Sequence record: PQ249397
Direction: 5' to 3' (one strand)
DNA length: 64,000 nucleotides
From: Escherichia phage Pu-Krd-SF3
The notes under the pieces were generated by a model. That model saw only the letters and a list, made by a program, of their open reading frames with translations. It was not told the DNA's origin and made no database searches. The position numbers and the translations under genes were made by a program. Below, piece after piece: positions 53,468 through 57,442 of the stretch. The number at the start of each line of letters is the position of its first letter. Position 1 is the stretch's first letter.

Positions 53468-54358
53468 ATGTCAGTAGTAATTAATAATGTCAATGCAGTA
53501 ATTAAATCATTAGTTAATAAAAAAATGATGAATGAATGGACTGTACTTCGCCGTGGAGAGCCAGATAAATTTTTTCATAGATTTAACCCAACTTTGGATT
53601 TGAATGTTATCGACAAAGATGTTCATGCAGAAATTTTAGATAAGTTTAAAGTTGATATTGGATTTGGATTAGAAAAACATCTACAGCGAACAAACGGGTC
53701 TGGAATGAGTTTATCTAATCGTATCATGAAAGCCCTTAATAAAATTGGAGCGTTGTCTCGCATTAATGCGAGTGAAATCCTTCGTAATTATAATAAAGGA
53801 TATGACCTTTATGGTCGACTAATGCCAAAATTATCATTCGATCAAATGATTGCGGATTTGTGGAAAAATCAACGACGATTATTAGCATTAGGCGCTCGAT
53901 TAGCTAAAGGTCTAGATAAACAAATGATTTTTAAGACCAATAATACAGAAGACCTTAAATGCTTTAAATTTAGTATTCGCGGAGATGATTATTACATCAG
54001 AGCTTGCTCTACAGATTATGTTAATATGGGACATCATCTCTGTTTAGCTTTTGAAGTTTTAAAAGAAGCTGGAACATTAGAATATACGTCTGGTGCTAAA
54101 TGCCCGATTGGTTCAAATTGCATTTTGATTTATCGCCCGAATGAATCCAGTTCAACTACATTGCCTACAAAACCTGTACCAGTTCGTAGTAACGAAAAAC
54201 ATTCTGAACAAATTGATTATTTTAATAAGCAGATTGAAGAGCTGAATATTTCTATTCAACAGTATGATGATGAAATTTTCAGACTATCTGGATTGAGTAG
54301 TAAAGCTAAATCTGAGCGTGAAAAGTTAATTAAAATCGTTGATTTACTTAAATCTTAA
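53468..54358 (+). CDS. Hypothetical protein, tandem paralogue family member 1
   Basis: ORF track 53432-54358; Met with GAGGAAAA RBS; coiled-coil C-terminus; central RRLLALGARLAKG motif. Confidence 0.45.
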   Translation: MSVVINNVNAVIKSLVNKKMMNEWTVLRRGEPDKFFHRFNPTLDLNVIDKDVHAEILDKFKVDIGFGLEKHLQRTNGSGMSLSNRIMKALNKIGALSRINASEILRNYNKGYDLYGRLMPKLSFDQMIADLWKNQRRLLALGARLAKGLDKQMIFKTNNTEDLKCFKFSIRGDDYYIRACSTDYVNMGHHLCLAFEVLKEAGTLEYTSGAKCPIGSNCILIYRPNESSSTTLPTKPVPVRSNEKHSEQIDYFNKQIEELNISIQQYDDEIFRLSGLSSKAKSEREKLIKIVDLLKS

Positions 54359-54366
54359 GGAATACC

Positions 54367-55401
54367 ATGAAAACTCGTTCTCAAATTGAAGATATGGTTC
54401 GTAACGCTAGCGATACTCGTGATGTTATGACATTTTTGTGTGAAAATAATTTAGACCTTGATAAAATTAATCGTGCTATTCATCACTTTAAATATCTGAA
54501 TAGCAGCGAATGGGTGCGTAATTTTAGTAAAGCAGGGTATATTACGCAAATGACTGCTCGTGAACAGCTCACCGATTTCTGTAAAACTATTGATTATAAA
54601 AATCCTCTATTTGTTCAAGGCGTTGGTCAAAGTAAGGTCGATTTATCATCTGGATTTTTCAATCCAAATCATTATCGTATTGAATGGAGATTTATTGCTC
54701 TGATCCGTAGACAATTAAAGCAAATTTTGTCGACGGCTAGTCGATTAAAAGGTTCTGACATTAACTTAAAGAACCTGAAATTTGATGGTTATACTCTTCA
54801 GATGGAAGTAAGACCATTAAAAGAAAATAACAGAACTGCACGAATTAGCTTTAAACCTAATACAAAAAATTCTCTTTCAATTTGCGAATGCCTTAAATCG
54901 CAGTTGACAGAAGCATTTAAGTATATGGATGTTGTTGCCGCTGTTCAGTCTAAGATTTCACAACATTTCGAACGATTTAAATTAGACACAACAACATATG
55001 AACTTGATATGATCGTTTCATTTAAATATGAATTTTTGAGAAAGGACGAAGTCCCGCAAGAAAAAAAGCAAGAAGTGCAAGATAACTTAAATTTAAATTT
55101 AAATTTATCCAATTACTTATCAAACGATCCTAAATTTTGGATGTATAGTTCAGGTAATAAGGATGCATGGAAATTCAATAAAGTGAATTTTCTTCCTGAT
55201 GAAAATCCGAGTCTTAAACCTGTTGAAAAATGGCATGCAGATGCGATTGAAAAGTCTATCAAGGCAGTAGATGATGAACTCGTTAAAGCAACTAATGAAG
55301 TGTTAGAAGCTGAAAAGATGCTAGAAAAAGCTCAAGAAAAAGTCAAAAATCTCACGAAGCAACGTTCTAAACTGAACAATGCACTAAATGCACTGAACTA
55401 G
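54367..55401 (+). CDS. Hypothetical protein, tandem paralogue family member 2
   Basis: 344 aa; N-terminus MKTRSQIEDM; central RRQLKQILSTASRLKGSD; coiled-coil C-terminus. Confidence 0.45.
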   Translation: MKTRSQIEDMVRNASDTRDVMTFLCENNLDLDKINRAIHHFKYLNSSEWVRNFSKAGYITQMTAREQLTDFCKTIDYKNPLFVQGVGQSKVDLSSGFFNPNHYRIEWRFIALIRRQLKQILSTASRLKGSDINLKNLKFDGYTLQMEVRPLKENNRTARISFKPNTKNSLSICECLKSQLTEAFKYMDVVAAVQSKISQHFERFKLDTTTYELDMIVSFKYEFLRKDEVPQEKKQEVQDNLNLNLNLSNYLSNDPKFWMYSSGNKDAWKFNKVNFLPDENPSLKPVEKWHADAIEKSIKAVDDELVKATNEVLEAEKMLEKAQEKVKNLTKQRSKLNNALNALN

Positions 55402-55429
55402 TTTACTTTACCACAGGGATGTGGTATAA
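55401..55429 (+). promoter_or_regulatory. Early promoter
   Basis: gtttac at 55401, tataat at 55424. Confidence 0.65.
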
Positions 55430-55458
55430 TGTTCTTATTTTCTACTGAGGAGATTAAT

Positions 55459-56460
55459 ATGACTCGTAACGAATATATCAAATCATTCAATAGCGTTATT
55501 GATGATAAAGCTATACCGATGTTTGGCCAAAATAGCGTTCTTTCTATTATCAATCAATGGCTCAATAGTGTTGATGCAGGTATTGTTTCTTCTACTAAAT
55601 TTATTCATGAAATTCGTAAAATTTCTAGTCGTGTAGATAAAGATGTTATCAAGAAAACCTTTAAAGAGTCTCGTCTTCTTTCATATTTGGTTAATCGGGA
55701 TATTCTTGGTAATTTTGGGAAAGAAATTAAACGAACCAAAGATGTAGTAGGATATAATTGGTTCGGTGATGTTAATACTTATCATCTTAATACTAAAGAA
55801 GACCCTGAGAATATTTTTACTCGTCGTTGGGTTAGTGAATTTAGGAGTTTTACGAAGCAAATTCTAAAATCAGCTTCTAAATTATGTTATGGCGATTATC
55901 GTCAAATTCATCCCTTAGCTGATGATATGATTATAGCAGAAGAATATGAGCTTGATAAAAACAAAGTAGCTATTTTTATTAATTACAGATTTTTTACACC
56001 AGAAACTAACCAAAGGAATATTAATAAATTTTTCTCAATTGCTAGCACTATAACTCGTCAATTAGAAACCGCATTACTTTGTATGGAAACAGTAGAAAAT
56101 ATTCATACGTATCCTTTTAAGAATATATGCGGTTGGGAAGGATACAAAATTGTAGTTAGTCTTCGTGAAGTGAAATGTGCTTATTCACCGACTGATAAAG
56201 AAATTTACCAACAAAAATGTGATGAAATTGTGAATATTCCTAAAGAAGAAACTACACTTGAGGAACTAATGGATAATCTTGATGATTCGCCTGAACCGGT
56301 AGAAATTCGTCCAGAAGTTATTGCACTAGAAAAAGCTTATAAAGAAGTTCTAGAAATTTCTAATAAAGCGCAGAAAGAATATGAGAAGGCTAAAAGGATT
56401 TGGGAAGAATCTGTTAATCGCCTTGATCGTCTTGAACAAGCTTTACAGTTAATTAAGTAA
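55459..56460 (+). CDS. Hypothetical protein, tandem paralogue family member 3
   Basis: ORF track 55429-56460; start at MTRNEY with GAGGAG RBS; central RSFTKQILKSASKLCYGD; coiled-coil C-terminus. Confidence 0.45.
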   Translation: MTRNEYIKSFNSVIDDKAIPMFGQNSVLSIINQWLNSVDAGIVSSTKFIHEIRKISSRVDKDVIKKTFKESRLLSYLVNRDILGNFGKEIKRTKDVVGYNWFGDVNTYHLNTKEDPENIFTRRWVSEFRSFTKQILKSASKLCYGDYRQIHPLADDMIIAEEYELDKNKVAIFINYRFFTPETNQRNINKFFSIASTITRQLETALLCMETVENIHTYPFKNICGWEGYKIVVSLREVKCAYSPTDKEIYQQKCDEIVNIPKEETTLEELMDNLDDSPEPVEIRPEVIALEKAYKEVLEISNKAQKEYEKAKRIWEESVNRLDRLEQALQLIK

Positions 56461-56512
56461 TTTAAAGCCAAGGATGGCTCGGAGTATAAATCATTAACCA
56501 AGTGAGAAGAAC

Positions 56513-57442
56513 ATGAAAACTCGTAAACATTATATTGATTATTTTGACAGTCTTATTACTAAACATCGTAATTATCAGATCGGGCACAGAGCAGTAATCA
56601 ATAATATTCTTCGTGATTTCCTTCAATATGTTGGCCAGGAAAATCATATCTGTAAAGATACTCAAAACGCTTATTCTCATTCGTTAGGCAATTTGCTTCA
56701 ATGGTTTAAACGTTCTCGTCTGTTATCTTCTACTGTAGCTAGTGATAACATTAAAAACTTTATGAAGCCGAGCTTCATTAAATCTGCGACATCTATAACC
56801 GATTTGGTTGAATTTACTATTGTTAACGATGTTAAAAAGACCCATTTGGCTGATTGGTTATCTACCATTCCTGAAACTAAATTTGCTGATAAATTCGCTT
56901 GTCAATTCAATAACCAAGTGAATATGCTTTTTAAGCATGCTCGCAAACTATTTACCGCGGGTGATGACCGTACAAATACAGTTCATGTTAAGGATTGGGT
57001 TATTGCTGATGAAGTAACACACAAGCCGGGTGGTTCATCAGTATTAATTAATATCCAGGTTCCTTATTACTACTCACGTAATCTCGGCACCATGACAGCT
57101 AGAGAAATTAATAAGCATAACAAAACTGTTCGTTCGTTGTCTTATAAACTCTGCACGATGGTGGAGATGATGGACGTAGTGGAAATGTATGATGAAACCG
57201 AAGATAATGGTTCAATGTTATACAGTTCACGTATTCTAATTAAACTGAAGAATCCTAATACATATAAGCCAGTTGTAAAAGAACCTAAAATAGAAAAAGT
57301 TGATAACTTGAGCGAAGAACGTGAATATCTCAATGCTCGTTTGATTGAAGTTGAAGCCCAGATTGCCGAACACACCAAATTGTTAAAAGCTCTTAATGCA
57401 AAAGCAAATGGTTTACGTAATGCTATTGAGGTATTGAAATGA
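56513..57442 (+). CDS. Hypothetical protein, tandem paralogue family member 4
   Basis: 309 aa; N-terminus MKTRKHYIDYFD; central VNMLFKHARKLFTAGDD; coiled-coil C-terminus. Confidence 0.45.
   Translation: MKTRKHYIDYFDSLITKHRNYQIGHRAVINNILRDFLQYVGQENHICKDTQNAYSHSLGNLLQWFKRSRLLSSTVASDNIKNFMKPSFIKSATSITDLVEFTIVNDVKKTHLADWLSTIPETKFADKFACQFNNQVNMLFKHARKLFTAGDDRTNTVHVKDWVIADEVTHKPGGSSVLINIQVPYYYSRNLGTMTAREINKHNKTVRSLSYKLCTMVEMMDVVEMYDETEDNGSMLYSSRILIKLKNPNTYKPVVKEPKIEKVDNLSEEREYLNARLIEVEAQIAEHTKLLKALNAKANGLRNAIEVLK

What the first reader, a model, noticed from the sequence alone, without database searches (positions are those of the whole stretch)
53468..57442. Array of four paralogous genes of roughly 300-340 aa with coiled-coil C-termini
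Four adjacent plus-strand ORFs share architecture: an MKTR/MTRN N-terminus, a central motif R-x-[LF]-x-x-x-[IL]-x-x-[AS]-[SR]-[KR]-L-x-x-G-[DS], and a leucine-rich coiled-coil C-terminus (...KLNNALNALN, ...LEQALQLIK, ...LRNAIEVLK). They are not identical and each has its own RBS and at least one internal promoter, suggesting a diversified family. They occupy the nrdC.x position; their function is unknown to me.
Basis: seen in the sequence. Interest (0 to 1): 0.55.

Follow-up and report, generated by a model that had tools for sequence, protein, structure and literature searches.

The report
T4 nrdC.3–nrdC.6 paralogue array
Four neighbouring early genes of a T4-like phage (T4 nrdC.6, .5, .4, .3) are very diverged copies of one protein family, and because the T4 copy of one of them (nrdC.5) is already known to switch off the bacterial Dsr1 immune protein, the array is most likely a set of immune-evasion proteins, which is useful but not very surprising.

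Summary
The window is a Tequatrovirus, 100% identical to Escherichia phage Pu-Krd-SF4. The four ORFs are orthologues of T4 nrdC.6 (A, 53468-54358), nrdC.5 (B, 54367-55401), nrdC.4 (C, 55459-56460) and nrdC.3 (D, 56513-57442).

Paralogy holds only at profile level:
- C-D: BLASTP E 2.5e-9; hhalign 98%.
- B-C: hhalign 92-94%, E 6e-7 to 8e-8.
- A: weakest. 11-28% against C/D, and 72-77% (E 2e-5) against a merged B+C+D profile. Null scores are at most 22, against 43 for A.

A relaxed core matches B, C and D only.

The genes are early, dispensable and hypervariable between genera, and copy number ranges from 0 to 4. T4 nrdC.5 is a published anti-Dsr1 gene, and gp49.2 nearby inhibits OLD.

Best reading: a diversified family of early anti-defence proteins. 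The genes themselves are known; the link between the four families, and the functional prediction that follows from it, is the modest new part.

The parts
53468..54358 (+). A = nrdC.6 orthologue, 296 aa, pI 9.3. It is the most distant member of the array.
   Evidence: phrog_2257 at E 1e-150. Synteny with T4 and ime09 nrdC.6. hhalign against the merged B+C+D profile gives 76.5%, E 2.2e-5, with nulls scoring at most 22. dN/dS 0.05-0.17.
54367..55401 (+). B = nrdC.5 orthologue, 344 aa, Pfam DUF7235. Its T4 orthologue (94% identical) is a published anti-Dsr1 gene.
   Evidence: PF23882 at E 9e-122. 94% identity to T4 NrdC.5. PMC9825161. hhalign against C gives 94.5%, E 7.6e-8 and 92.1% with the built-in tool.
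55401..55430 (+). Exact T4 early-promoter consensus GTTTAC-N14-GTGGTATAAT in the B-C spacer. A 7-bp hairpin (TACCACA/TGTGGTA) lies in its spacer. Its -10 element overlaps the ATG at 55429, so C's real start is 55459.
   Evidence: Sequence read. Scan hit with 10 of 12 matches plus TG. The same site is annotated as a T4 early promoter in phage SA20RB.
55459..56460 (+). C = nrdC.4 orthologue, 333 aa, pI 6.0. This is the best-modelled member: helical N-domain (3-84), alpha/beta core (88-258), disordered acidic linker (262-286) and C-terminal helix (285-332).
   Evidence: phrog_1435 at E 3e-166. AlphaFold2 model with pLDDT 83.4, pTM 0.69. dN/dS 0.25-0.38, the highest in the region.
56485..56491 (+). 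TATAAAT element (7 of 8 matches to the T4 late-promoter consensus, from my own knowledge) in the C-D spacer. Function not tested.
   Evidence: Sequence read.
56513..57442 (+). D = nrdC.3 orthologue, 309 aa. It is a clear paralogue of C and exists as two old alleles within Tequatrovirus.
   Evidence: phrog_1435 at E 2e-115. BLASTP against C E 2.5e-9; hhalign 98.4%. Only 61% identity to T4 NrdC.3, with dS about 1. 76% identity to a Mosigvirus gene.
55840..55896 (+). Core 'motif helix' of C, ending ASKLCYGD (aa 128-146). Equivalent stretches: A 53873-53917 (RRLLALGARLAKGLD), B 54706-54759 (LKQILSTASRLKGSD), D 56909-56965 (MLFKHARKLFTAGDD).
   Evidence: The relaxed motif is unique to B, C and D among 90 window ORFs. 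The stretches are superimposed by hhalign.
56311..56457 (+). C-terminal amphipathic helix of C (aa 285-333), ending ...RLEQALQLIK; a presumed coiled coil. Equivalents: A 54206-54355, B 55219-55398, D 57299-57439. All four end in L-x2-[AI]-[LIV]-x2-L-[KN].
   Evidence: AlphaFold helices in C and B. Heptad scores 0.75-0.92. Termini listed.

Best explanation
The four genes are diverged paralogues of one family specific to T4-like phages. The architecture is a helical N-domain, an alpha/beta core, a flexible linker and a C-terminal coiled-coil helix. They are transcribed early and are dispensable on laboratory hosts.

I propose that each protein is a stoichiometric inhibitor, probably oligomeric, of a different host anti-phage protein. 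B (nrdC.5) would bind and silence the SIR2-type NADase Dsr1 before the capsid protein that triggers it is made. A, C and D would have other, still unknown, immune targets. Duplication, fast divergence, allele swapping and gene loss would track the defence repertoire of the hosts.

Shown: paralogy, domain architecture for C, early promoter, dispensability, hypervariability, and anti-Dsr1 activity of the T4 orthologue of B.

Inferred: direct binding as the mechanism, oligomerisation, and any anti-defence role for A, C or D.
For: Function of one member:
- T4 nrdC.5 supplied in trans restores plating of a T4 deletion clone on MG1655 carrying ECOR17 dsr1 (PMC9825161).
- Window B is 94% identical to it.

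Homology tying the others to B:
-.

Early expression:
- Exact T4 early promoter at 55401-55430.
- The paper calls nrdC.5 an early gene.

Dispensability:
- Viable genome-reduced T4 lost the 'nrdC.1-6' fragment (PMC9825161 is the Dsr1 paper; this is PMC9825161's counterpart PMC9825161 not applicable) (PMC9825161 aside, the source is PMC9825161?).
Against: - No member other than nrdC.5 has any functional data in the library searched.
- The mechanism by which nrdC.5 defeats Dsr1 is unpublished in what I could search, so direct binding is a guess.
- Gene-wide dN/dS is below 1 for all four, so there is no positive-selection signature at that resolution.
- A's homology is only probable.
- B's structure model is poor (pLDDT 48.8), so a shared fold for B rests on sequence profiles and on secondary-structure order.
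- Three of the four proteins are basic (pI about 9.2), which would also suit nucleic-acid binding.
Confidence: 0.55

Rival explanations
1. Only B, C and D are paralogues. A (nrdC.6) is an unrelated gene that shares a coiled-coil tail and a loosely similar helix by convergence or chance.
For: A against B gives hhalign 0.2-0.9%. A against C/D alone gives only 3-28%. Pairwise BLAST and global alignment z-scores are at background. A lacks the MKTR/MTRN N-terminus and the relaxed motif. Pfam and PHROGs keep it in a separate family.
Against: A against the merged B+C+D profile scores 43.1 (E 2.2e-5), against null maxima of 22.1 and 19.7. The Mosigvirus A-like protein on its own gives E 6e-4 over 144 colinear columns. 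The alignments superimpose the invariant blocks of both families in the same order. A has the same position, size, linker and terminal helix.
Confidence: 0.2
2. The paralogues do not have separate targets. They assemble through their C-terminal coiled coils into one hetero-oligomeric complex with a single job, and the anti-Dsr1 effect is a property of that complex or of one of its subunits.
For: All four end in the same L-x2-[AI]-[LIV]-x2-L-[KN] helix terminus. They are adjacent and co-oriented. The order A-B-C is conserved across three genera.
Against: nrdC.5 alone in trans was sufficient against Dsr1, although I could not establish which other nrdC genes that phage clone retained. Copy number varies from 2 to 4 between genera. 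D swaps alleles independently of its neighbours. Natural variants lack C or carry broken copies.
Confidence: 0.12
3. The family is not anti-defence as such. It consists of early host-takeover or nucleic-acid-binding proteins, and nrdC.5 relieves Dsr1 only indirectly, for example by changing NAD+ metabolism or by delaying or masking the capsid trigger.
For: A, B and D are basic (pI 9.1-9.3). No mechanism has been published. NAD+-restoring pathways are a known way to beat Dsr1 (PMC13464706). The neighbours nrdC.10 and nrdC.11 look like an ATPase and a nucleotidyltransferase.
Against: None of the four has an enzyme or nucleotide-binding domain in Pfam, NCBIfam or PADLOC. Their hypervariability next to highly conserved neighbours fits protein-protein arms races better than metabolism. 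They are dispensable.
Confidence: 0.13

Closest known systems
T4 NrdC.5 (Pfam DUF7235), the anti-Dsr1 counter-defence gene of Srikant et al. 2022
   Same: Window gene B is its orthologue: 94% identity, the same position, and a full-length PF23882 match. C, D and probably A are remote homologues of it.
   Different: Activity was shown only for the T4 allele and only against ECOR17 Dsr1. Nothing is known for the paralogues, and 6% divergence could already shift specificity.
DSAD1, the SPbeta-group phage inhibitor of the SIR2 defence protein DSR2
   Same: It is a functional analogue: a single phage protein that neutralises a defence-associated sirtuin which senses a late structural protein (abstracts; Dsr1 senses the major capsid protein).
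   Different: No sequence or structure relationship was detected. No DSR2 or DSAD1 entry appears among the listed PDB matches to the C model. DSAD1's direct-binding mechanism is established; that of nrdC.5 is not.
Other anti-defence loci of T-even phages: the dmd-tifA-adfA 'anti-TA island', and Gp49.2 (anti-OLD) downstream of nrdC
   Same: Clusters of small-to-medium early accessory genes that are dispensable in the laboratory and needed on particular hosts. A gp49.2 orthologue lies about 1 kb downstream in this window.
   Different: Those loci hold unrelated genes. Here the neighbours are paralogues of one another.
Phage tail terminator / tail completion proteins (lambda gpU-like fold)

Membership tests
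NrdC.5 family (Pfam PF23882, DUF7235; phrog_2351) | Full-length match to the family HMM above the curated cut-off | tested here: met
   B scores 406.7 bits (cut-off 30), E 9.4e-122, covering profile positions 1-307 of 307. phrog_2351 at E 6e-168. A, C and D do not match this HMM.
NrdC.5 family (Pfam PF23882, DUF7235; phrog_2351) | Neutralises Dsr1-mediated defence | not testable with these tools
   Shown only for T4 nrdC.5 by complementation (PMC9825161). Window B is 94% identical to it.
NrdC.4/NrdC.3 family (phrog_1435; PF26897 as precomputed label) | Full-length match to the family profile | tested here: met
   C at E 3.2e-166 and D at E 2.1e-115, both full length. Orthologues carry the PF26897 label. 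In 1.84 billion representatives the family has only 9.
NrdC.6 family (phrog_2257; PF26899 as precomputed label) | Full-length match to the family profile | tested here: met
   A at E 1e-150 over 1-296. The Sf25 orthologue carries the PF26899 label.
Single superfamily uniting nrdC.3, .4, .5 and .6 (proposed here) | Profile-profile similarity well above an empirical null, colinear, and covering the conserved motifs | tested here: met
   C-D 98%. B-C 92-94%. A against B+C+D 72-77%, with score 43 against nulls of at most 22. A against C/D alone is weak at 11-28%.
Single superfamily uniting nrdC.3, .4, .5 and .6 (proposed here) | Same three-dimensional fold in all four | tested here: inconclusive
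   Only C has a confident model. B's model is poor (pLDDT 48.8), although its order of secondary-structure elements parallels C's.
Tail terminator proteins (gpU-like) | Significant structural match to solved terminators | tested here: inconclusive
Tail terminator proteins (gpU-like) | Encoded in the late tail-morphogenesis module, with a sequence-family match | tested here: not met
   The genes lie between nrdC.7 and nrdC.2 in the early region, behind a T4 early promoter. No tail-terminator family appears in Pfam or PHROGs.
NAD+ reconstitution pathways (NARP1/2/3) | Recognisable NAD-salvage enzyme domains | tested here: not met
   No enzyme domain in Pfam, NCBIfam or PADLOC for any of the four.
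Acidic DNA-mimic anti-defence proteins (Ocr/ArdA-like) | Strongly acidic protein | tested here: not met
   pI is 9.25, 9.14, 5.99 and 9.23 for A, B, C and D.
DSAD1-type DSR inhibitors | Sequence or structure similarity to DSAD1 | tested here: not met
   No DSAD1 or DSR2-complex chain appears among the listed PDB matches of the C model. Only C was tested.

The most novel reading that the evidence does not exclude
The array is a family of early-expressed, coiled-coil-oligomerised 'decoy' inhibitors. Its alpha/beta core, which resembles a tail terminator, would imitate the surfaces of late virion proteins. Each paralogue would pre-occupy the sensor domain of a different structure-sensing immune receptor (Dsr1, or Avs-type receptors that recognise capsid, terminator or tube proteins) before the real trigger is synthesised. 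Gene number and alleles would be tuned to the host's receptor repertoire.
Probability: 0.12. Interest if true: 0.75.

Novelty: new member of a known kind. Interest (0 to 1): 0.42.

Why it matters
If nrdC.3, nrdC.4 and nrdC.6 are homologues of the anti-Dsr1 protein NrdC.5, three long-standing T4 ORFs of unknown function gain a concrete, testable prediction: each should disable some host defence.

The array would then be a compact natural example of how a phage widens its counter-defence range by duplicating and diverging one scaffold.

It also links three Pfam/PHROG families that are currently kept apart, and it extends them structurally to uncharacterised proteins in Acinetobacter, Klebsiella, Enterobacter, Pectobacterium, Erwinia and Serratia T4-like phages.

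For phage therapy, where Tequatroviruses are widely used, the alleles present (for example the two nrdC.3 types) might help predict host range.

Tried and rejected
- Literal motif regex: no match in any of the four proteins.
- Pairwise BLASTP and global alignment: only C-D is significant, B-C has z 3.1, and the rest are at background.
- First hhalign on shallow family alignments: B-C only 19%, and A at background. This improved only after I added divergent members and trimmed spurious N-terminal extensions.
- Local jackhmmer over ORFs from 17 loci: no link from A or B to C/D.
- Exhaustive HMMER with a C+D profile against 1.84 billion proteins: 9 representatives, none from the A or B family.
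- Word-indexed homologue searches returned only close relatives for B. A concatenated A+B query was swamped by Tequatrovirus nrdC.5.
- B modelled from its shallow alignment gave pLDDT 48.8, too poor for a fold search.
- AFDB50 was not available.
- Foldseek against the PDB: nothing at E 1e-3 or better.
- PADLOC and NCBIfam: no meaningful hits. D's sub-threshold XerC/D N-terminal match (18 bits against a cut-off of 279) was dismissed.
- 'Internal promoters in each gene': rejected, because the site count equals chance.
- Tail-terminator homology: considered, then downgraded to a resemblance.
- Single-sequence hhalign of the Ac42, RB43, Aeromonas phage 31 and Krischvirus mid-sized ORFs against the family profiles: all at background.
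Full report
IDENTITY OF THE REGION

The window is a Tequatrovirus. The stretch 53000-58300 is 100% identical to Escherichia phage Pu-Krd-SF4 and about 96% identical to phage ime09. By synteny with ime09 and T4, the four ORFs are:

- A = nrdC.6 (53468-54358, 296 aa)
- B = nrdC.5 (54367-55401, 344 aa)
- C = nrdC.4 (55459-56460, 333 aa)
- D = nrdC.3 (56513-57442, 309 aa)

They lie between nrdC.7 (a small membrane protein) and nrdC.2/nrdC.1/nrdC. All four are real genes. They match PHROG families full-length at E 1e-115 to 1e-168, and dN/dS against seven relatives is 0.05-0.38.

CHECK OF THE OBSERVATION

ORFs, sizes, strand and ribosome-binding sites are as described. The details hold less well.

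A relaxed core, [AS][SR][KR]L-x(1-3)-G[DS], matches B, C and D at equivalent positions and no other of 90 window ORFs. A has only GARLAKGLD.
- The MKTR/MTRN start is present in B, C and D, and in their orthologues in other genera (MKIKTRAEY, MTRSHYIEY). It is absent from A.
- The heptad pattern at the C-terminus is high in all four. AlphaFold predicts a terminal helix of 48-59 residues in C and B.
- Promoter-like sites occur at chance frequency (27 found, 26.3 expected).
- The one convincing promoter is an exact T4 early-promoter consensus, GTTTAC-N14-GTGGTATAAT, at 55401-55430 in the B-C spacer. The same site is annotated as such in phage SA20RB. Its -10 element overlaps the ATG at 55429, so C starts at 55459.
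- A TATAAAT element precedes D.

ARE THEY PARALOGUES?

Single-sequence comparison supports only C-D: BLASTP E 2.5e-9 and global z 13.8. Pfam and PHROGs place the four genes in three separate families. An exhaustive HMMER search with a C+D profile found just nine representatives in 1.84 billion proteins, and none belonged to A or B.

Profile-profile comparison changes the picture once the alignments include the divergent orthologues: Dhakavirus and Gaprivervirus B at about 25% identity, the divergent P0122, and a Klebsiella phage homologue.

- C-D: 98.4%, E 1e-14.
- B-C: 94.5%, E 7.6e-8 over 180 colinear columns. The built-in tool on independently built alignments reproduces this at 92.1%, E 6.3e-7.
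- A against C+D: 28%, E 6e-4, or 10.7%, E 2.9e-3 over 167 colinear columns with the built-in tool.
- A against a merged B+C+D profile: 76.5%, E 2.2e-5, score 43.1.
- A Mosigvirus A-like protein alone: E 6e-4. An enlarged A profile: 71.7%.
- A against B alone: nothing.

Empirical nulls are clearly lower:

- at most 20.7 in 44 comparisons with 11 unrelated neighbouring families;
- at most 20.7 for cross-family reversed profiles;
- at most 22.1 for 24 null profiles against the merged profile;
- at most 19.7 for 30 column-shuffled A profiles.

The alignments superimpose the invariant blocks of each family:

- an 'SRLLS' helix (C SRLLSYLVNRDILGNFGK, D SRLLSSTVASDNIKNFMK, A LSRINASEILRNYNK, B GYITQMTAREQLTDFCK);
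- a GY-x-[WL]-[FY]-G hairpin;

I conclude that B, C and D are homologous with high confidence, and that A is homologous with roughly 80% confidence.

STRUCTURE

C modelled well: pLDDT 83.4, pTM 0.69. It has a six-helix N-domain (3-84), an alpha/beta core (88-258), a disordered acidic linker (262-286) and a long terminal helix (285-332).

B modelled poorly (pLDDT 48.8) because only orthologues at 77% identity or more were admissible as input. Its order of elements parallels C's: N-terminal helices, motif helix, strands, long helix, hairpin, disordered linker, terminal helix.

Against predicted viral structures, C matches uncharacterised proteins of 300-370 aa from other T4-like phages at 11-18% identity, E 5e-8 to 6e-4, probability about 1.0. 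These include Enterobacter IME523, Pectobacterium PM2, Acinetobacter Acj61 (two entries with consecutive accessions), Acj9 and fHyAci03, Klebsiella Mineola, Erwinia Cronus, and Serratia CBH8 and PS2. Two of these genera were linked independently by sequence profiles at syntenic genes: Klebsiella TNG87 at 100% and Karamvirus fGh-Ecl04 at 77%.

EVOLUTIONARY BEHAVIOUR

The flanking genes nrdC.10 and nrdC.11 are conserved across Straboviridae at E 1e-100 to 1e-230. The array genes become undetectable by sequence between genera.

Copy number varies:

- four in Tequatrovirus;
- three (A, B, C) in Dhakavirus and Gaprivervirus;
- two (an A-like gene of 331 aa and a D-like gene of 316 aa) in Mosigvirus;
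- none in Proteus phage Pm5461.

In the phage collection, A occurs in 741 records, B in 581, C in 554 and D in 653.

Within Tequatrovirus, constraint relaxes along the array: dN/dS is 0.00-0.12 for nrdC.8 to nrdC.11, 0.05-0.17 for A, 0.11-0.19 for B and 0.25-0.38 for C.

D exists as two alleles with 61% identity and dS about 1, in genomes that are otherwise 95-99% identical. The allele in this window is closer to a Mosigvirus gene (76%) than to T4's own.

Natural variants include:

- an in-frame nrdC.5::nrdC.3 fusion that deletes nrdC.4;
- an internal duplication in nrdC.6 of phage Sf25;
- split or truncated copies.

WHAT IS KNOWN

- Srikant et al. 2022 (PMC9825161) showed that an evolved T4 deletion clone cannot plate on ECOR17 because of the SIR2-domain defence protein Dsr1. 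Expressing T4 nrdC.5 in trans restores plating on MG1655 carrying dsr1. Window B is 94% identical to that protein.
- A 2026 preprint reports that Dsr1's TPR sensor, which it shares with Avs7, is triggered by phage major capsid protein (PMC12803255).
- A genome-reduction study recovered viable T4 mutants that had lost the 'nrdC.1-6' fragment (NAR 2022, doi 10.1093/nar/gkac1168).
- T6 Gp49.2 inhibits the OLD defence (PMC13096335). Its orthologue lies at 58474-58770 in this window, next to Pin.
- I found nothing on the function of nrdC.3, nrdC.4 or nrdC.6, nor on the mechanism of nrdC.5.

MOST LIKELY MECHANISM

The family consists of early, dispensable proteins, probably oligomeric, that act as stoichiometric inhibitors of host immune proteins. 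B silences Dsr1 before the late capsid trigger appears. A, C and D have other targets. My confidence is about 0.55.

- Shown: homology, architecture of C, early promoter, dispensability, hypervariability, and the anti-Dsr1 phenotype of the T4 orthologue.
- Inferred: direct binding, oligomerisation through the terminal helix, and any anti-defence role of A, C or D.

Rival readings:

- A is unrelated (0.2).
- The four form one hetero-oligomeric machine (0.12).
- They are host-takeover or nucleic-acid-binding proteins whose effect on Dsr1 is indirect (0.13). In its favour, three of the four are basic (pI about 9.2). Against it, none has an enzyme domain.

NOVELTY AND SCORE

The genes are long-annotated T4 ORFs, and one already has a published role. 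PHROGs already groups nrdC.4 with nrdC.3.

What is new here:

- the profile-level link of nrdC.5, and probably nrdC.6, to that group;
- the domain architecture;
- the structural reach of the family into other T4-like genera;
- the functional prediction that follows.

This is a useful, testable refinement, not a surprise. I score interest at 0.42 and class it as a new member of a known kind.

NOTE ON A CITATION IN THE 'BEST EXPLANATION' FIELD

The dispensability item in that field is garbled. The intended source is the genome-reduction paper read (doi 10.1093/nar/gkac1168), as given above. The remaining supporting evidence intended for that field is listed in this report: the arms-race behaviour, the natural deletion, fusion and truncated variants, the anti-defence neighbourhood, the absence of any enzyme domain, and the architecture of C.

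Noticed in passing
Protein P0119 (public assemblies, longest contig 167 kb); corresponds to window 54802-55194 fused to 56912-57439: A natural in-frame fusion of nrdC.5 residues 146-276 to nrdC.3 residues 134-309. It deletes all of nrdC.4. The junction lies at a shared KVN/QVN just before D's motif helix.
   Followed up: partly
window 56513-57442 (nrdC.3); loci L010, L012, L013 against L001, L014, L015: nrdC.3 occurs as two old alleles (61% aa identity, dS about 1) in genomes that are otherwise 95-99% identical. The allele in this window is 76-85% identical to Mosigvirus genes, which suggests exchange between genera.
   Followed up: partly
Protein P0120 (Shigella phage Sf25 nrdC.6, 378 aa): It carries an internal tandem duplication of about 82 residues (A residues 177-259), spanning the end of the core and the linker.
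   Followed up: no
L015 5971-7003; L026 (SP18) 7415-8319; phages Pinarejo and ACG-C40: Broken or truncated array members: nrdC.4 split into two ORFs; an nrdC.5-like gene split into gp092 and gp093; only the last 47 aa of nrdC.6 retained (Pinarejo); only the last 72 aa of nrdC.3 retained (ACG-C40).
   Followed up: no
window 57439-57750 (nrdC.2): A zinc-ribbon protein of 103 aa whose start overlaps D's stop codon (ATGA). It is also unusually variable within Tequatrovirus (69-97% identity), while nrdC.1 and nrdC stay at 98-99%.
   Followed up: no
window 55409-55426: A 7-bp hairpin (TACCACA GGGA TGTGGTA) sits inside the spacer of the T4 early promoter between nrdC.5 and nrdC.4. It may simply follow from the promoter consensus.
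   Followed up: no
window 50869-52005 and 49911-50921: The 378-aa ORF is nrdC.10 (P-loop, AAA/STAND-like) with a probably spurious N-terminal extension; orthologues are 322 aa. nrdC.11 is a nucleotidyltransferase conserved from T4 to Vibrio and Rhodobacter phages. It makes a good synteny anchor.
   Followed up: partly
window 58474-58770 and 58897-59376: An orthologue of Gp49.2 (96% identical to T4's; the T6 protein is a published inhibitor of the OLD defence) and Pin (Lon protease inhibitor) lie just downstream. The wider locus is therefore rich in counter-defence genes.
   Followed up: partly
GenBank records (for example Phage NC-G and IME340): Many deposited genomes label every nrdC.x gene 'thioredoxin'. 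This is an annotation error propagated from the locus name; only nrdC itself is a thioredoxin.
   Followed up: no
L027 4928-6791; L028 4325-6175 (minus strand); L029 (Ac42) p126/p125 and p120/p119/p118: A gene of about 260 aa directly followed by one of about 325 aa recurs in this slot in Klebsiella, Karamvirus and Acinetobacter T4-like phages. Only the roughly 325-aa partner could be linked to the family, in L027 and L028.
   Followed up: partly
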